IMG/VR virus record: IMGVR_UViG_2703718774_000012
Length of the DNA stretch: 64,000 nt
Direction: 5' to 3' (one strand)
DNA from: a virus
Taxonomy: Duplodnaviria > Heunggongvirae > Uroviricota > Caudoviricetes
Part shown: positions 22,448 through 27,961 of the stretch, piece after piece
Position numbering within the stretch: position 1 is the first letter of the stretch
Layout: each line of letters opens with the position of its first letter
The notes under the pieces: model-generated
What the model was told of the DNA's origin: nothing
Database searches by the model: none
The model's input: only the letters and a program-made list of their open reading frames with translations
Position numbers and translations under genes: made by a program

Positions 22448-22534
22448 TGGTGGGGAGTGATGGAGTCGAACCACCCGAGTCGCAATGACAGTAGATTTAC
22501 AGTCTACCCCGCTACCCCTACGGACTAACTCCCC
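22448..22534 (-). tRNA. candidate class-II tRNA, Tyr-like (anticodon GUA), 87 nt
   Basis: Perfect 7-bp acceptor stem, anticodon stem-loop GTAGA-CTGTAAA-TCTAC, long variable arm GTCATTGCGACTCG resembling E. coli tRNA-Tyr, T-arm GGTGG-TTCGACT-CCATC, 3' ACCA; D-arm irregular. Confidence 0.45.
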
Positions 22535-22539
22535 TAAAG

Positions 22540-22614
22540 TGGCGATGGTGGGTGGATTCGAACTACCGACCAGTTGGTTAACAGCCAACTGCTCTACCGC
22601 TGAGCTACACCATC
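22540..22614 (-). tRNA. tRNA-Asn (anticodon GUU)
   Basis: 75-nt cloverleaf GATGGTGTAGCTCAGCGGTAGAGC-A-GTTGG-CTGTTAA-CCAAC...TTCGAAT...CACCATCGCCA on minus strand. Confidence 0.8.
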
Positions 22615-23267
22615 ACTTGCCGGGTACGTCTCCGGCGAGGGCTTCCACCTCCGTATGCTTTTCGGCGCACCGCGCCCTGGCTGCAATTCGGTAACAGGGG
22701 ATGCATAACCCTGGCTTCCAGCGTGATTAGCGCCTTCAGCATGACGGGATATACCCGTAAATTCGTGGAACTGTACCCAAAGTGCTGTTAAGCACCGCTG
22801 TTACGCTGAAAAGAAAACGCAACAGGAAAGGACGCTGACCAACAGATGGCCCCTTCTCGTTCATCTGGTTAATCACACCAGCGCCCTTACCTGTTGTGCC
22901 TCCCCGTTCCCTAATACACAGACGGGGACACTCTGCGGTCGATTTTTTGACGGGGGACGACTCATACCCCATGGCATCTGGCTTCTTAGGCCGCTACCAT
23001 CATCAGATCATCGTTTGCATTTACTTTAATGGTCAGTTTCTAAACCGCCGCAAAGTCGCTAACCATGACGAAAACCCTGAAAAAAACGCCCACCCGAAGA
23101 TGGGCAAACTGGACGCTCGTAACGCACTTCGGCGTTGCCACTTAGGCGCATGGTCAACCTGGCAACTCGGTGGTTTGTCTGGGAGGACTAGGCCCAGCCA
23201 TGCTTACCGCCGCGCCTGTCGCGGCTAACAGCTAAATCGCTCTATAAATCACGATTCATTGAGGTAA

Positions 23268-23296
23268 TATTACACTAATAAATTTATTAGAGCAAT
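23268..23296. promoter_or_regulatory. composite operator: perfect consensus site ATTGCTCTAATAAATTT (minus, 23280-23296) overlapped by inverted partial site; candidate promoter of tRNA-ban operon
   Basis: 17/17 match; TTGCTC -35, 17-bp spacer, TAATAT -10 on minus strand; overlaps the last codons of the methyltransferase gene. Confidence 0.6.
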
Positions 23297-26200
23297 ATAA
23301 CCAAAACGTCATGAGCTACACCTCGAGTGTCCCCCTTACAAGACACAGAACGTCTGGCAAAAAGAGGTTCCACTCTGAAGCCACTGTCATGATAAAGCTC
23401 TCTGATGTTTGGCGCGCCACTGTTAGTAATGAGAACCTTTGCACCTCGACGATGAGCATCCGTCAACAGAGACACCAGGCGTTTTTGCTCTTCAAACTTA
23501 AAGTCATGACCGGAATAGTTCGTGAATCCCTCTGTATTTGGAAGCGGTTCATACGGCGGATCGCAAAAGATGACATCTCCTTCTCCGGCAGCTTCAATCA
23601 CCGCTGCAAAATCACCGCATACAAACTCAGACCGCCCTTCCGCACCGAGGAAGGCTTCCATCTCCTGTAATGGGAAATACGGAGTTTTATACTTCCCATA
23701 ACCGACATTGAACTCACCGGCCTGGTTGTAACGCGTCAATCCGTTAAAACAATGTCGGTTCAGGAACAAAAACGCCGCTGCGCGATGTAAATCATCATAG
23801 ACTTGTTTGTTAAACGCATTCCGTACTGCCAGGTATCCTTCCTGTGTGTTGTAGTCCTGGAAGAAACGATGTGCCAGAGTGATAAGTGAATGCGCCTCGC
23901 GTTGCAGAGTCTTGTAAAAGTTAATCAGGTCAGCATTCACATCATTTAGCAGATTTTCCTGGTATCCGGCATTCATGAAGACAGCTCCGCCACCAACGAA
24001 AGGTTCAATCAGGCGCTTCCCTTCTGGCAAATAGCGAAAGATTTGTTCCAGAACACCAAATTTTCCACCAGCCCATTTGAATATGGACCGTTCGAATTCT
24101 GCCGCTGGTTTAACTTTTCGCTCTTTTGTTTCACTTCCTTCTTTCTGCCGACATACGGCCTTAGTAATCCGATCGCCAATCCAGCGCATTACTGGTATTG
24201 CCATACTATTGCCGATCGCTTTGTAACGCGGTCCGTCAGCTGCAAGCATTGCGGCCTCTTCTTCGCTTAAATCTGGATAGTGATTGTGCAGATATGCCAG
24301 TTCATCTGAATTAACTTTTTTACGCTTTTCCGTAGGGATCAACGTATGCCAATCAGGAAAACCTTGCAGCCTTTCACATTCGACAGGGGTAAGACGGCGC
24401 ATTCTACCGTCGCCGAGCAATACAATTGGTGCTTCATGGTTACATGTCAAAGTTGGTGCCGAATTATCGGTTTTTATCTCAGCCCCTCCTTGCCCATGTG
24501 CCATGGCAATTATGTTTGTATCATCGCAAGTTCTGATAGCGATGTTTGAAGTATATCTGGTAGTTTCCTTCCCCTCGCCTCTGCTCGGCGCAATATTCCG
24601 GCGCACGCCTTCGAACTCAAAAAGTACCGTTGCGGGATCGAGATCTGTTCGAGCACTTGCGACAACAAACACGCGTCGGCGTCGTTGTGCCACTCCGAAG
24701 TATTGGGCATCAAGGATTCTCCAGGCCACTTTTCGCTGCGGTCCATAAATACAACCACACTGCGGCCACTTTGGAACATGGCAACCGGTTTTGCCATCCC
24801 ACCGCCAGAACGCGTTGCTTTTTCCTGATTCAGGTCGATCACCTGGTTCAAATGGCACATCTTCTCCAGCCAATCCGGCAAGGAAACATCCGAAGGCGTT
24901 ATCTGCCGATGACAAGACTCCTGGGACATTTTCCCAGACGATAACGGCTGGTTTGAGAAATGACTCAGCCCGTTTGTCGTCAATTGCATTTGCAAGCTCC
25001 ACATACTTTAAAGTTAGCGCGCCACGCTCATCATCAAGCCCACCACGTAATCCCGCGATACTGAATGCCTGACAGTTATGGACCACCGCACCATTGAGGA
25101 TATAGGAATGATCACCTTCGACTTCTATGTTGTATACAGTATCTAGGCCTACCGATTTAAACTCTTTGACTGTTCGTAAAAGCATTCCATGAGCCAATCT
25201 TGATTTACGTGACAATTTCTGCGGGCAGATTGTTACCTGATAATAATTCCGTTGATTTACCACGCGATCCTCGATCACTTTTTTGGGCTCAACTTCAATA
25301 AAGCTGACCGAAGAAACATAACCACAAGTCTGTGACAACCCCGCAACGCCCCAAGCAAGCGCAGAACTAACACTATTAATTCTAAATCCCGCTTTACCAC
25401 TTGGTGTCCCATCAGTATCAAGATAGCCTTGTAAAAACACATGACGCAATGGATGCGACATCACCCATGCAGGGATACGCTTAGCATGGCTTAACTCGCC
25501 AAAATGTTCATTAAGCCAATTGGCATAACACGTATCATTCAAGGTTACTTTGATGCTCCCTCGGATTTCGCTTGCCACGGAAAATATGTTTTCTGGTATG
25601 CGGCAATGAAACTTTCTCAATTTCTGGCAATTTATGCCAAAAACAACCGCCTTCTTAGATTTACCTCTCCATCTCCTAATATATCCATCGCCAACATAAG
25701 CGCCCGCAAGATACATAGCCTGTTCTTCAGACAAGAACCGAGAACAAATATCTGGAAATGCAATATTGAAATTAGTTAGAGCGCACCATTGATATCCCGG
25801 CATATCACATGCTGCTCGCCATTCCGGTTCAGACAACAACTCTCTCTTAAAATATGTGCCATTTTTCCGGGTGTTTTGGGCTTTCCACCGAACAGCCAGG
25901 AAGGGATGGTCATTGGTTGTTCTTATACCTAAAGGCTGCCCAACGGCATTAAGTAACCCCGTATTAGCTATTTTTGAACCAACTCTTTTTACTTGTTGTA
26001 ACCGCCCGAGATGACTGACTACGTAATCACCAGGGCAAACATTTTCTATTGGTTTATAGCCATTTTTACAAAGAACCATATGCCCCGCGGTAAAACATGG
26101 TGTTCCCCCGACGAGCACGTCAGGGGATTCGATTTCCCCAGCCAAGACTTTTTTGGCAAGTTTTTTCATGTCGCCAAGGTTGGCAACATGGGGCCAGCGG

Positions 26201-26328
26201 AGCGCAAGAACGGCCGATGGAAAAGGCTCGATTTCAGCAAACCACGCCGGACGCATACCCAACGGTTCCCAGGCAATACTCGCGGCTTCAATTCCACTGC
26301 AAACAGATCCATAGCACAGCTCTTTCAC
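23287..26328 (-). CDS. dmt: bifunctional DNA methyltransferase: N-terminal C5-cytosine MTase (intein-interrupted) + C-terminal Dam-like N6-adenine MTase
   Basis: C5-MTase motifs: [10 protein letters not shown] (I), GGTP|...|CQAFSIAG (IV, split), VWENVPGV (ENV), [20 protein letters not shown] (X); Dam-like part [28 protein letters not shown]. Confidence 0.8.
25075..26097 (-). other. intein (341 aa) with LAGLIDADG homing-endonuclease motifs, inserted in C5-MTase motif IV
   Basis: Begins CFTAGHMVL, block B TTNDHPF, two LAGLIDADG-type motifs [10 protein letters not shown] and [11 protein letters not shown], ends [21 protein letters not shown] followed by +1 Cys; removal restores [12 protein letters not shown]. 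Confidence 0.75.
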
Positions 26329-27230
26329 TGCTTAGCCTCTCCGCCAAGGGCATTTACCAGAGCATCAACCAGGCACGAAATTTCACTGGTCAACAGGAAG
26401 AAATCTGCGTCCAGTCGCTGCGCAACATCTTCACTATCAATATCAGAGTTCTGCTCAAGCAATTCATCCGCAAATTTGACGCTGGTAAGGCTGAAGTTAT
26501 GGTCCAGTGTAAATTTAATGCGGTTCTGCCAGTCGAGTGCCAACTTAGTGACGAGCTTGCCAGCTTCCAGGTGTGTGGAAATTTCATCGCTTCCCAAATC
26601 CTGCTTTTTCACTCGGGCAATACCGCCATCCTCAAGCACTGCCTTAAGTTCTGCCGCATCCCCCATTTGAAATCCCTGTGGAGCACTACCATCACGTACC
26701 CAGTCGGTCAGCGTTAATTCAATGGGATTTTCAACACTCAGGGGAACAGCAGGAAGAGAACCCAGAGACTTACGCATAAGCGCGAGCATATCCTCTGCCT
26801 GCCGCGCGCTGGCATTGATATAGATACGTTTAGTTGAACCGTCGTAGATCGCCTGGATAACAGAAAACTTTGAAAAAGCCCGTGGCAGAAGAGAATGCAG
26901 AACTTCGTCTTTCAGGGAGTCCTTCTCTGTTTTCTTCAGTTTACGCGCTTGTTCTTGCTCAAGTTTTTCAATTTTTTCTTGAATAGCTCGCTGGATAACC
27001 GGCGGGGGAAGAATTTTTGTTTCGCGCTTTGCTTCAACAAGGATAAAACCATTTCCATGCATAGCGATAACTTCAGAATTATCACCAAATGGCGATACAA
27101 AACCGAACTTGGCCATATCCTGACTACCGCATGGCGTGAAAAGGATCATTTTCTTTTTATCTTCTAAGTCGGTCAGATCCGCCTCACGAGAAAGTTTATA
27201 AATAGTAATGTTTTTCCAGTGCTTAAACAT
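26325..27230 (-). CDS. rdgC: recombination-associated protein RdgC homolog
   Basis: From [16 protein letters not shown]: [14 protein letters not shown]..., [50 protein letters not shown]-terminal GGEA closely parallel recalled E. coli RdgC; track ORF extended upstream spuriously. Confidence 0.8.
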
Positions 27231-27507
27231 GTTGTAACCCTTGAATATCAACCACAGAAAGCTCGTCTTTGTAGAAAAAGGCCAGGTTGTGGCACCCCCT
27301 CGTTTGAGCGTATGAGCTGGGACCAATTTCGTTCTTCCAGACAAATGGCTTCAAATCCGTACGGCGAAGCATAAAAACGCGATTTATTCCGCTCTGATTC
27401 CCAATGAGGCAAAAGCCTTCTTTCACCTTGATAGCCTGCAAGTTGTCGAGTTCACCGCTGGTTACACGGCTATCGAACTCTTTGCGGCTTATTAGCTCCA
27501 TCTGCAT
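27223..27507 (-). CDS. hypothetical protein (94 aa), first gene of operator-controlled operon
   Basis: Start placed at ATG 27505-27507 ([11 protein letters not shown]) with GGAG 7 nt upstream; track start is a TTG inside the operator. Confidence 0.4.
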
Positions 27508-27578
27508 CTGACGACTCCAAACAAATGCCCATTGAAGGGCGATGGCTGAATGGTACCGAAAATACGACATAAAAAACA

Positions 27579-27595
27579 ATATTTATTAGAGCAAT
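27579..27595 (-). promoter_or_regulatory. C1-type operator (minus strand reads ATTGCTCTAATAAATAT)
   Basis: 16/17 consensus match immediately upstream of the 27223-27507 / rdgC / dmt operon. Confidence 0.55.
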
Positions 27596-27676
27596 TTTGC
27601 GATAAGTAAACGCCATACAGACCACAAATAACCTAAGTTAAAATAACGAAAATCAGAGCAAATAATTGGTGATGGC

Positions 27677-27961
27677 GTGGCAAGCATTGCAACAAAAGAC
27701 AGCATTTGTTCGGGGCACGGAGGATTCCCATCCAGGCCTCCTGTAGAGAGTGAACCACTACTTAAAGTCAACGGAGTCGAAGTGTTAGTTGATGGTAAGC
27801 AATATGCACAGCATACCGATGGAAACAGTACGCACGGTGGGCAAGCTATATCAACCAGGGCATGGTTTACCGTCAATGGTAAAGGGATCGTATGCGTTGG
27901 TGACCCTGTTTCATGCGGATCTACCGTAGCGTCCGGAGACGGCCTGGTTCAGGTAAGTTAG
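27677..27961 (+). CDS. small Gly/Cys-containing protein, possibly PAAR-like spike-tip protein
   Basis: GTG start; pattern CSGHGG...VNG...VNGKGIVCVGDPVSCGSTVASGDG loosely resembles PAAR repeats; weak. Confidence 0.3.
   Translation: MASIATKDSICSGHGGFPSRPPVESEPLLKVNGVEVLVDGKQYAQHTDGNSTHGGQAISTRAWFTVNGKGIVCVGDPVSCGSTVASGDGLVQVS

What the first reader, a model, noticed from the sequence alone, without database searches (positions are those of the whole stretch)
23287..26328. Bifunctional methyltransferase with C5 domain N-terminal and Dam-like domain C-terminal, ending inside an operator
C5 motifs I, IV, ENV and X lie in the N-terminal two-thirds; Dam-like motifs (FKWAGGK, NGLTRYN, DPPY) lie in the C-terminal third. 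The last codons (ATA TTG CTC TAA) sit inside a perfect ATTGCTCTAATAAATTT operator. The gene is co-transcribed with an RdgC homolog from an operator-controlled promoter at ~27580.
Basis: partly seen in the sequence, partly recalled or inferred. Interest (0 to 1): 0.5.

Follow-up and report, generated by a model that had tools for sequence, protein, structure and literature searches.

The report
Unannotated intein splitting phage P1-type Dmt methyltransferase
The gene is the already-known two-headed DNA methyltransferase (Dmt) of a P1-like phage-plasmid.

Summary
ORF 23287-26328 (-) encodes a 1013-aa protein with a C5-cytosine MTase N-terminal part and a Dam-type MTase C-terminal part. Its stop codon lies inside a perfect 17-bp C1 operator, and it follows uhr and an RdgC homologue behind an operator-controlled promoter.

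All of this is documented P1 biology: Dmt, Odmt/Op68, and Oban/Op72ab, which controls the downstream tRNA-ban operon, not dmt. Domain order is the same as in P1.

What is new is an in-frame 1023-bp insertion (25075-26097), residues C78-N418, between Pro77 and the catalytic Cys419 of motif IV (GGTP|CQAFS). P1 and P7 lack exactly these residues.
- It has every canonical class-1 intein residue and two LAGLIDADG motifs.
- The AlphaFold model (pLDDT 90.9) matches PI-SceI-type intein endonucleases.
- Removing it in silico restores a contiguous C5-MTase match.

It occurs in 126 of about 495 P1-like plasmids and in 152 of 5426 complete E. coli genomes. It is always at this site, at 98.5% identity or more, combined with different target-recognition cassettes, and never annotated as an intein. 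Distant relatives occupy the same site in many C5 MTases.

Splicing and homing are inferred, not shown.

The parts
27579..27595 (-). C1 operator Odmt (P1 Op68), ATTGCTCTAATAAATAT, 1 mismatch to the consensus
   Evidence: Pattern search. Identical in sequence and position to the operator annotated in P1 and P7 (alignment).
27550..27579 (-). Sigma-70 promoter Pdmt. The -35 hexamer is at 27574-27579 and the -10 hexamer at 27550-27555, by transfer from the P1 annotation.
   Evidence: P1 annotation mapped through alignment A2. There is a single A/G difference in the spacer. Transferred, not tested.
27223..27507 (-). uhr homologue (94 aa, function unknown), first gene of the operon
   Evidence: ORF list. 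Position and length match P1 uhr. No Pfam family.
26325..27230 (-). hrdC, an RdgC-family gene (301 aa). Its stop overlaps the dmt GTG start by 4 nt.
   Evidence: PF04381 RdgC, 327 bits. Same length and position as P1 hrdC. Overlap read.
23287..26328 (-). dmt precursor ORF (1013 aa): N-extein, intein, then C-extein
   Evidence: 100% identical to plasmid NC_013370 of E. coli O111:H- 11128.
26098..26328 (-). N-extein, residues 1-77: C5-MTase motif I ([11 protein letters not shown]) up to GGTP of motif IV
   Evidence: Alignment with the intein-free P1 and P7 Dmt. Motif coordinates.
25075..26097 (-). Intein, residues C78-N418 (341 aa, 1023 nt): HINT splicing domain plus a LAGLIDADG homing endonuclease. 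Block A is CFTAGHMV, block B is TNDH (T138, H141), the LAGLIDADG motifs are at 207-216 (D214) and 299-307 (D306), block F is [14 protein letters not shown], and block G is VVHN.
   Evidence: Absent, to the residue, in P1 and P7. TIGR01443 intein_Cterm 28.9 bits (cutoff 15.6) and PF14528 LAGLIDADG_3 30.2 bits (cutoff 22.5). AF2 pLDDT 90.9. Best folds are PI-SceI, the TliVMA intein and PI-PfuI. GC is 42.7% against 49.0% in the extein.
24154..25074 (-). C-extein, C5-MTase part (residues 419 to about 725): catalytic Cys419 (CQAFS), [14 protein letters not shown], the short target-recognition cassette (about residues 582-643), motif IX and motif X
23290..24093 (-). Dam-type (D12 class) N6-adenine MTase domain, residues about 746-1013
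   Evidence: PF02086 192 bits and TIGR00571 250.6 bits. Best solved relative is E. coli Dam, 2g1p, E = 2e-57.
23269..23296 (.). Divalent C1 operator Oban-ab (P1 Op72ab). Half-site a is at 23280-23296 (-), is perfect and contains the dmt stop codon. Half-site b is at 23269-23285 (+) and has 2 mismatches. It overlaps promoters P1ban/P2ban (about 23267-23312 by transfer).
   Evidence: The 28 bp are identical to those of P1 and P7, where they are annotated as controlling ban.
22368..22614 (-). Three tRNA genes of the downstream C1-controlled operon: Asn (gtt), Tyr (gta) and Thr (tgt)
   Evidence: ARAGORN and Rfam RF00005.

Best explanation
The window is a P1-like phage-plasmid, and the ORF is its dmt gene. 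It is the last gene of the C1-repressed uhr-hrdC-dmt operon and encodes the known fusion of a C5-cytosine MTase and a Dam-type GATC adenine MTase.

In this allele the C5 half is interrupted by a canonical class-1 intein that carries a LAGLIDADG homing endonuclease. The intein sits between Pro77 and the catalytic cysteine of motif IV.

Proposed mechanism.
(1) On derepression, a 1013-aa precursor is made.
(2) The intein excises itself using Cys78, the T-x-x-H block, His417-Asn418 and the +1 Cys419. It joins Pro77 to Cys419 and recreates the GGTPCQAFS active-site loop of a 672-aa Dmt, the same length as the intein-free P7 Dam.
(3) The same cysteine serves first as the splicing nucleophile and then as the methyltransferase nucleophile, so C5 activity should depend on splicing. 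The C-terminal Dam domain is a separate fold and may work even in the precursor.
(4) When an intein-bearing and an intein-free P1-like element meet in one cell, the freed endonuclease cuts the empty site ...GGAACACCT|TGTCAGGCATTCAG.... Repair then copies the intein in (homing).

Shown: the anatomy, the fold, the residue conservation, the precise presence/absence polymorphism and the population pattern. Inferred: splicing, endonuclease activity and homing.
For: Identity of the locus.
- The shared parts are 96-99% identical in DNA to P1, P7 and RCS47 dmt, with the same neighbours.
- The operators and promoter align with the P1 annotation.

Intein.
- It is an exact in-frame insertion of residues 78-418, absent in P1 and P7. 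Its flanks, GGTP and CQAFS, together make C5 motif IV.
- TIGR01443 and PF14528 score above their cutoffs. Hint_2 scores 28.2 against a cutoff of 28.4.
- The AF2 model has pLDDT 90.9 and pTM 0.88.
- The top 16 Foldseek hits are all intein-homing endonucleases: PI-SceI at E = 4e-18, the TliVMA and PhoVMA inteins, PI-PfuI and PI-PkoII.
- The in-silico spliced protein raises PF00145 from 104.9 to 125.8 bits. The best match becomes contiguous over residues 8-135, profile positions 5-119.
- T61-x-x-H64, D137, K206, D229, D329 and H340 are 89-100% conserved in 122 family members. All, together with C1, N341 and the +1 Cys, are present here.

Intactness and selection.
- Six copies are all open. They differ at 11 synonymous and 11 non-synonymous codons, and none of these touches a key residue.

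Mobility.
- The intein is in 126 plasmids, against 363 with an uninterrupted junction.
- It is in 152 of 5426 complete E. coli genomes, always at this site and at 98.5% identity or more.
- It occurs with both the short and the P1-type target-recognition cassettes, as do the intein-free alleles, so all four combinations exist.
- In an E. albertii plasmid the 5' extein is 94.4% identical to the window, while the intein is 98.5% and the 3' extein 99.4%.
- The intein's GC content is 6 points below the extein's.
- Relatives at 28-56% identity occupy the same P|C...HN|CQ site in many other C5 MTases. They occur in diverse bacteria and on viral contigs.
Against: - No experiment shows splicing, cleavage or homing for this element.
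- The -1 residue is proline. From general intein biochemistry (my knowledge, not tested here), that is unfavourable for the first acyl shift in several well-studied inteins. However, Pro at -1 is the rule in this family (about 75 of the top 80 hits).
- C5 methylation by P1 Dmt is annotated only as 'perhaps', so selection for splicing could be weak.
- The ratio of non-synonymous to synonymous changes is higher in the intein (11:11) than in the Dam domain (4:19). That fits relaxed constraint on part of it, possibly the endonuclease.
- Homologous recombination between P1-like plasmids could produce the mosaic pattern without an active endonuclease.
Confidence: 0.85

Rival explanations
1. One reading: an uninterrupted bifunctional C5 + Dam methyltransferase whose expression is tied to the operator that overlaps its stop codon.
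For: Both MTase classes are detected. The operator is perfect and contains the stop codon.
Against: Motif IV is split by 341 residues that have an intein/LAGLIDADG fold. The operator is annotated in P1 and P7 as Oban-ab, overlapping the ban promoters, and it controls the downstream operon. dmt itself is controlled from Odmt, 4.3 kb upstream.
Confidence: 0.05
2. The insertion is a dead or non-splicing intein remnant. The protein stays as a 1013-aa precursor, the C5 half is permanently inactive and only the Dam domain works. The element persists by hitch-hiking because P1 needs only the Dam activity.
For: The P1 annotation says C5 activity is only 'perhaps' present. According to a review, Dam methylation at pac is the requirement for packaging (PMC12707154). 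The intein's non-synonymous to synonymous ratio is higher than that of the Dam domain. The -1 residue is Pro.
Against: Every splicing residue is intact in all six copies examined: C1, TxxH, the block F Asp, HN and the +1 Cys. No copy examined has a stop or frameshift, apart from an IS1-disrupted gene. The C5 extein motifs I-X are intact. The target-recognition region exists in three alternative cassettes, which suggests the C5 half is used and is under diversifying pressure.
Confidence: 0.08
3. The intein splices but its endonuclease is inactive. The patchy distribution (about 26% of alleles, both recognition-cassette backgrounds) comes from ordinary homologous recombination among co-resident P1-like plasmids, not from homing.
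For: P1-like plasmids are clearly mosaic here. There are three recognition cassettes, and the extein flanks are polymorphic. About 145 intein-free alleles have flanks nearly identical to the occupied ones and yet remain empty (my estimate from the identity bands; examples L006 and L007). The intein's non-synonymous to synonymous ratio is 11:11.
Against: Both LAGLIDADG catalytic aspartates (D214, D306) and the conserved Lys are present, and they are 94-98% conserved across the family. All occupied alleles carry CCA at the junction while all empty ones carry CCT. In L009 the 5' extein is about four times more diverged than the intein. That pattern is as expected for transfer of the intein into a diverged allele with a short conversion tract.
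Confidence: 0.25
4. The long ORF is an assembly or annotation artefact that fuses separate genes.
For: None found.
Against: The same 3042-bp ORF is present at 98-100% identity in dozens of independently sequenced complete plasmids and phages. The intein is in 152 complete E. coli genomes. The exact protein is present in NCBI and UniRef.
Confidence: 0.01

Closest known systems
Bacteriophage P1 Dmt (AAQ14041, 754 aa) and P7 Dam (AAQ07538, 672 aa) with their regulatory sites Odmt/Op68 and Oban/Op72ab
   Same: Same operon (uhr-hrdC-dmt), same operators and promoter, and same domain order (C5 then Dam). The shared parts are 96-98% identical in DNA. After in-silico splicing, the window protein is 672 aa, like P7 Dam, and carries the same short recognition cassette.
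   Different: P1 and P7 have no intein. The P1 reference has a different, longer recognition cassette (+82 aa) and a private G74W change next to the catalytic loop.
PI-SceI (the VMA1 intein of yeast) and other LAGLIDADG intein endonucleases (Tli/Pho VMA inteins, PI-PfuI, PI-PkoII)
   Same: Two-domain architecture: a HINT splicing domain split by a LAGLIDADG endonuclease domain. It has Cys1, TxxH, a C-terminal His-Asn and a +1 Cys. These are the best structural matches to the AF2 model (E from 4e-18 to 2e-9; TM-score normalised to the query 0.52-0.64).
   Different: Sequence identity is only 11-17%. The host protein and insertion site differ: a DNA C5-MTase catalytic loop rather than a V-ATPase, ribonucleotide reductase or polymerase. 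The intein is smaller (341 aa) and has no extra DNA-recognition region of the PI-SceI type (inferred from its length). Pro is at -1.
Inteins in actinobacteriophage DNA methylases (DNMT-1/2 of mycobacteriophages, PMC5050341; the Dorothy_75 family, PMC9957025)
   Same: These are phage-borne orphan DNA methyltransferases invaded by a LAGLIDADG-type intein. They show a patchy distribution and evidence for transfer between diverged host genes.
   Different: In PMC5050341 those hosts are described as N6/N4-type methylases (N6_N4_Mtase) of actinophages. Here the host is a C5 MTase of an enterobacterial phage-plasmid, and the intein sits exactly at the catalytic cysteine.
Uncharacterised inteins at the same P|C...HN|CQ site of other C5 MTases (for example P0022, a 1148-aa C5+D12 fusion at 56% identity; a Mannheimia haemolytica 'Hint domain-containing protein' P0010 at 47%; Metarhizobium album at 48%)
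   Same: Same insertion point, same length class (323-368 aa) and the same conserved residues.
   Different: They are at most 56% identical to the P1-group intein. None is characterised, and I found no paper describing this intein allele.

Membership tests
Intein (canonical class 1) | In-frame insertion inside a conserved motif of a host protein, absent from close orthologues | tested here: met
   Residues 78-418 are absent, to the residue, in P1, P7, L005, L006 and L007 Dmt. The flanks, GGTP and CQAFS, form C5 motif IV.
Intein (canonical class 1) | Nucleophile at position 1 (Cys/Ser), block B T-x-x-H, C-terminal His-Asn, and a +1 Cys/Ser/Thr | tested here: met
   C78, T138-N-D-H141, H417-N418 and C419. 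T61/H64 are 100% and H340 89% conserved in 122 relatives. Cys1, Asn341 and the +1 Cys were imposed by my extraction pattern, so their 100% is by construction.
Intein (canonical class 1) | HINT fold, and a match to curated intein models | tested here: met
   TIGR01443 intein_Cterm scores 28.9 bits, cutoff 15.6. Two Pfam models are below their cutoffs: Hint_2 at 28.2 against 28.4, and Intein_splicing at 18 against 35.8. The AF2 model (pLDDT 90.9) matches PI-SceI, TliVMA and PI-PfuI over both domains.
Intein (canonical class 1) | Actual protein splicing | not testable with these tools
   Needs expression and a protein gel or mass spectrometry. Indirect support only: in-silico excision restores a contiguous PF00145 match.
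LAGLIDADG homing endonuclease | Two LAGLIDADG motifs, each with the catalytic acidic residue, in an alpha-beta-beta-alpha-beta-beta-alpha fold | tested here: met
   [10 protein letters not shown] (D214) and LQGYLDTDG (D306). PF14528 scores 30.2 bits, cutoff 22.5. The aspartates are 94% and 98% conserved in the family. The fold also matches I-DmoI and I-SceI.
LAGLIDADG homing endonuclease | Site-specific cleavage of the intein-free allele, and homing | not testable with these tools
   Population data are consistent with homing: all four intein/cassette combinations exist, the intein is less diverged than the 5' extein in L009, and the junction base is diagnostic.
C5-cytosine DNA methyltransferase (PF00145) | Motifs I, IV (PC), VI (ENV), VIII, IX and X in order, and a model score above the cutoff | tested here: met
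   104.9 bits as the precursor and 125.8 bits after in-silico splicing, cutoff 22. TIGR00675 dcm scores 95.5, below its cutoff of 100.65, for the precursor. Catalytic activity was not tested.
Dam family (D12 class) N6-adenine MTase | A match to the Dam subfamily model, with the DPPY catalytic motif | tested here: met
   TIGR00571 scores 250.6 bits, cutoff 114.85. DPPY is at 923-926. The best solved relative is E. coli Dam, E = 2e-57.
E. coli Dam equivalog (NF008152) | Score above the equivalog cutoff | tested here: not met
   243.9 bits against a cutoff of 441. It is a Dam-family domain, not the host Dam itself.
P1 Dmt orthologue / P1 C1 regulon | Synteny (Odmt-uhr-hrdC-dmt-Oban-tRNAs) and 17-bp C1 operators at the annotated positions | tested here: met
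   There are 9 operator-like sites in the window against 0.33 expected.

The most novel reading that the evidence does not exclude
The intein is more than a parasite: it acts as a post-translational gate that uncouples the two activities of Dmt. The Dam domain would be active as soon as the precursor is made, giving the GATC methylation needed at pac. C5 methylation would appear only after splicing regenerates the Pro-Cys catalytic loop. Its timing could be set by a slow or condition-dependent step, for example one sensitive to redox state through Cys1/Cys+1 or slowed by Pro at -1. It would also be a native, currently spreading intein in E. coli's own mobilome, which allows direct homing crosses in phage P1.
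Probability: 0.12. Interest if true: 0.75.

Novelty: new member of a known kind. Interest (0 to 1): 0.5.

Why it matters
The intein does add something.

- It sits on the residue that is the nucleophile for both splicing and cytosine methylation.
- It is carried by the classic genetic workhorse P1 and its relatives.
- It is present in about 3% of complete E. coli genomes and in about a quarter of P1-like plasmids.
- It is labelled only 'Dam family methyltransferase' everywhere I looked.

Natural intein-plus and intein-minus alleles, including a laboratory P1 derivative that carries it (OP279344), make splicing, homing and any regulatory effect directly testable in E. coli.

It also exposes a large, apparently undescribed family of inteins at motif IV of C5 MTases with Pro at -1. 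That is of practical interest for intein biochemistry and for genome annotation.

Tried and rejected
- **Literature.** Ten full-text searches combined intein with Dmt, P1, P1-like, phage-plasmid, Punavirus, cytosine methyltransferase and similar terms (one search failed on term length and did not count). None found a paper on an intein in P1-type Dmt or in a C5 MTase. Only the actinophage methylase inteins turned up (PMC5050341, which describes its hosts as N6/N4-type; PMC9957025). The P1 genome paper (PMC523184) is not held, so I relied on its GenBank annotation.
- **Sequence search of the intein against PDB.** It gave only weak hits: Spl DnaX mini-intein at E = 0.0015 and PI-PkoII at 0.024. 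The fold search was needed.
- **Promoter and terminator scan of 22900-27800.** It found fewer promoter-like sites than the shuffles, and none at Pdmt. It was uninformative, so I used the transferred P1 annotation instead.
- **Rfam on 22200-23400.** Only the three tRNAs were found. P1's annotated 'dicF-like region' did not reach any gathering score.
- **Partial intein matches in E. fergusonii plasmids.** I suspected a variant intein. It is an IS1 insertion that disrupts the gene.
- **Chromosomal copies.** I considered a second host gene. It is an integrated P1-like element with the same dmt.
- **P7's predicted internal late promoter LPdam2.** Its '-22 box' AAGTTTCTT reads AAGTTAATT in the window, so I did not pursue a Dam-only transcript.
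- **Names given by public sources.** 'Dam family site-specific DNA-(adenine-N6)-methyltransferase' for the full protein. 'Hint domain-containing protein' appears only on fragments or on distant relatives.
Full report
**1. What is in the sequence**

The ORF at 23287-26328 on the minus strand is real: 1013 aa with a GTG start. Its start overlaps the stop of the upstream gene by 4 nt. That upstream gene is an RdgC-family protein (PF04381, 327 bits).

Pfam and NCBIfam detect both methyltransferase classes:
- PF00145 DNA_methylase: 104.9 bits, in four separate stretches.
- PF02086 MethyltransfD12: 192.1 bits, residues 752-984.
- TIGR00571 dam: 250.6 bits, cutoff 114.85.

The final codons ATA TTG CTC TAA lie in a perfect ATTGCTCTAATAAATTT at 23280-23296. 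The window has nine such sites with up to 3 mismatches, against 0.33 expected by chance. One of them, at 27579-27595, lies upstream of the operon.

**2. What the locus is**

The gene is 100% identical to that of plasmid NC_013370 of E. coli O111:H- 11128. Its shared parts are 96-99% identical to dmt of phages P1, P7, RCS47 and Ro157c2YLVW.

- operator Odmt (formerly Op68) overlapping promoter Pdmt;
- the genes uhr, hrdC (RdgC family) and dmt, described as a 'bifunctional DNA methyltransferase' that methylates GATC adenine 'and perhaps' C5 cytosine;
- a divalent operator Oban-ab (formerly Op72ab) that overlaps the end of dmt and the promoters P1ban/P2ban, and controls the downstream tRNA-ban operon.

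The window aligns with these regions almost base for base. The second half-operator is at 23269-23285. Three tRNA genes follow.

So the operator at the stop codon is not a device regulating dmt. It is the control region of the next operon, packed against the end of dmt. Domain order in P1 and P7 Dmt is also the same as here. A review states that P1 needs GATC methylation at pac, which makes dmt essential in Dam- hosts (PMC12707154).

**3. The feature that was missed**

The translation shows ...[16 protein letters not shown]... and, 341 residues later...[15 protein letters not shown]....

Aligned with P1 Dmt (754 aa) and P7 Dam (672 aa), residues 78-418 are an exact in-frame insertion. It lies between Pro77 and Cys419, inside GGTP|CQAFS. 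That is motif IV of C5 MTases, whose cysteine is the catalytic nucleophile.

The insertion has every hallmark of a canonical intein with a homing endonuclease:
- Residues: Cys at position 1, a T-x-x-H block (T138, H141), two LAGLIDADG motifs with their aspartates (D214, D306), a block-F-like [14 protein letters not shown], a C-terminal His-Asn, and Cys at +1.
- Curated models: TIGR01443 (intein C-terminal region) and PF14528 (LAGLIDADG_3) score above their cutoffs. Hint_2 misses its cutoff by 0.2 bits.
- Structure: an AlphaFold2 model built on 12 sequences has pLDDT 90.9 and pTM 0.88. Its 16 best Foldseek matches in the PDB are all intein homing endonucleases: PI-SceI, the Tli and Pho VMA inteins, PI-PfuI and PI-PkoII, with E from 4e-18 to 2e-9. 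Free-standing LAGLIDADG enzymes come next.
- In-silico splicing: deleting residues 78-418 raises the C5-MTase score from 104.9 to 125.8 bits. The best match becomes contiguous over motifs I-VI. The product is 672 aa, the length of the intein-free P7 protein.

**4. Is it alive, and does it move?**

*Intactness.* Six copies from different plasmids, phages and one chromosome are all open reading frames. They differ at 11 synonymous and 11 non-synonymous codons, and none affects a key residue. The Dam domain of the same genes shows 19 synonymous and 4 non-synonymous changes. The intein is therefore constrained, but less so than Dam.

*Frequency.*
- In PLSDB the intein is complete in 126 plasmids, while 363 plasmids have an uninterrupted junction. 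About 26% of alleles are occupied.
- In RefSeq, 152 of 5426 complete E. coli genomes carry it: 148 copies on plasmids and 5 in chromosomes. One chromosomal copy is an integrated P1-like element.
- It is always in dmt, always at this site, and at 98.5% identity or more.

*Recombination and transfer.*
- The intein occurs with both the short and the P1-type target-recognition cassettes, and so do the intein-free alleles. All four combinations exist.
- In an E. albertii plasmid the 231-nt 5' extein is 94.4% identical to the window, while the intein is 98.5% and the next 480 nt are 99.4%.
- The intein's GC content is 42.7%, against 49.0% for the extein.

*The site itself.*
- Every occupied allele examined reads GGA ACA CCA | intein | TGT CAG (one, L009, has GGG for the first codon).
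- Every empty allele reads CCT | TGT CAG.
- Empty alleles come in two kinds. One is otherwise identical to the occupied flanks (L006, L007). The other carries three synonymous changes in the 6 bp before the junction, plus a run of linked changes up to +117 (P1, P7, L005).

These patterns are what homing with short conversion tracts would leave. Ordinary recombination among mosaic P1-like plasmids could contribute as well. I cannot separate the two without the full population or an experiment.

**5. The wider family**

An exhaustive HMMER search with the intein alone found 4287 cluster representatives at E <= 1e-3 and 186 at E <= 1e-30.

In about 75 of the 80 best hits, the intein sits at the same place...P | C...HN | CQxxSxAG, motif IV of a C5 MTase.

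The nearest non-P1 relative (56% identity) is again a C5 + D12 fusion. Others are plain C5 MTases. Named sources include Mannheimia haemolytica and Rodentibacter, and Metarhizobium, Mesorhizobium, Neisseria, Clostridia, Chloroflexota and Streptomyces. I confirmed the C5-MTase site only for the protein hits, and did not inspect the host genes of the loci. A further 154 loci lie on viral contigs. A mini-intein version without the endonuclease also exists (P0019).

In a 122-member alignment, T61/H64, D137, K206, D229, D329 and H340 are 89-100% conserved. Cys1, Asn341 and the +1 Cys were imposed by my extraction pattern, so their 100% is by construction. Proline at -1 was also imposed there, but it is seen independently.

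**6. How it most likely works**

- Shown: the anatomy, the fold, the conservation and the presence/absence polymorphism.
- Inferred from established intein chemistry: the precursor splices through Cys78, Cys419 and Asn418. This regenerates the Pro-Cys catalytic loop.
- Inferred: C5 methylation requires splicing, because the loop is split and its cysteine is the +1 residue.
- Inferred: the Dam domain, a separate fold 330 residues downstream, may act in the precursor too.
- Inferred: the LAGLIDADG domain cuts empty dmt alleles when two P1-like elements share a cell.

I put 0.95 on 'this is an intein by sequence and structure', about 0.8 on splicing competence and about 0.6 on a currently active endonuclease.

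**7. Novelty**

The intein is a new member of a known kind.

Every record I saw names the protein 'Dam family site-specific DNA-(adenine-N6)-methyltransferase', 'DNA cytosine methyltransferase', 'Dmt' or 'methyltransferase'. Only fragments or distant relatives carry 'Hint domain-containing protein'.

Ten full-text searches found no paper on it. The known phage methylase inteins are in actinophage methylases, described as N6/N4-type in PMC5050341 (PMC5050341, PMC9957025). I could not consult InBase, InterPro or REBASE, so a prior database record cannot be excluded.

**8. Verdict**

The real interest lies in the unannotated intein at the catalytic cysteine, which is common in E. coli's P1-like plasmids and readily testable.

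Noticed in passing
window 24400-24585 (about residues 582-643 of Dmt); L001, L005: The C5 target-recognition region, between motif VIII and motif IX, exists as at least three unrelated cassettes among P1-like elements. The short one (about 60 aa) is here and in P7. The P1 type is about 142 aa. The long one (about 250 aa) is in NZ_LR130557, whose Dmt is 862 aa. 257 PLSDB plasmids carry the P1 type. This suggests the alleles have different m5C specificities.
   Followed up: partly
L001 (AF234172, P1 reference), Dmt residue 74: The sequenced P1 mod749::IS5 c1.100 strain has VWGTPCQ where every other allele examined, including one with the same architecture (L007), has VGGTPCQ. This is a private G74W change right next to the catalytic Pro-Cys, and it might impair C5 activity in the reference laboratory strain.
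   Followed up: no
window 22368-22614 (-): Three tRNA genes lie downstream of dmt: Asn-gtt, Tyr-gta and Thr-tgt. The P1, P7, RCS47 and OP279344 records annotate only Asn and Thr at this position, so the tRNA-Tyr (41.9 bits in Rfam) is an extra gene in this lineage.
   Followed up: no
L004 (OP279344.1, 'Escherichia phage P1 isolate del res del mod'): A laboratory P1 derivative propagated on MG1655 carries the intein-containing, short-cassette dmt allele, 99.0% identical to the window. It differs from the P1 reference genome at this locus, so P1 stocks are not uniform here.
   Followed up: no
L012 (NZ_CP070875, E. fergusonii) and L011 (NZ_CP080229): These are disrupted dmt genes. An IS1 is inserted 76 nt into the intein in E. 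fergusonii plasmids. In an O141:H4 plasmid the 5' end of dmt is missing and an IS91-family element lies immediately upstream.
   Followed up: yes
L008 (NZ_CP099353, E. marmotae plasmid): This is a more distant P1-like element in which rdgC follows tail tape-measure and baseplate genes. The dmt-like reading frame after rdgC stops after 311 aa and is not annotated, so it is possibly a pseudogene.
   Followed up: no
window 23087-23106 (-): A terminator-like hairpin (TGCCCATCTTCGGGTGGGCG followed by a run of T) lies about 180 nt downstream of the dmt stop, close to where P1 annotates a 'dicF-like region'. No Rfam family reached its gathering score there.
   Followed up: partly
window 24298-24316 (-); L002 2789-2807: P7 annotates a predicted internal late promoter (LPdam2) inside the gene, upstream of the Dam domain. 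In the window its -22 box reads AAGTTAATT instead of AAGTTTCTT, because of the Ser-to-Asn codon at residue 673.
   Followed up: partly
window 7061, 9153, 9202, 12817, 42532, 44203: Six further C1-operator-like sites (1-3 mismatches) lie elsewhere in the window, as expected for a P1-type immunity regulon. I did not examine them individually.
   Followed up: no
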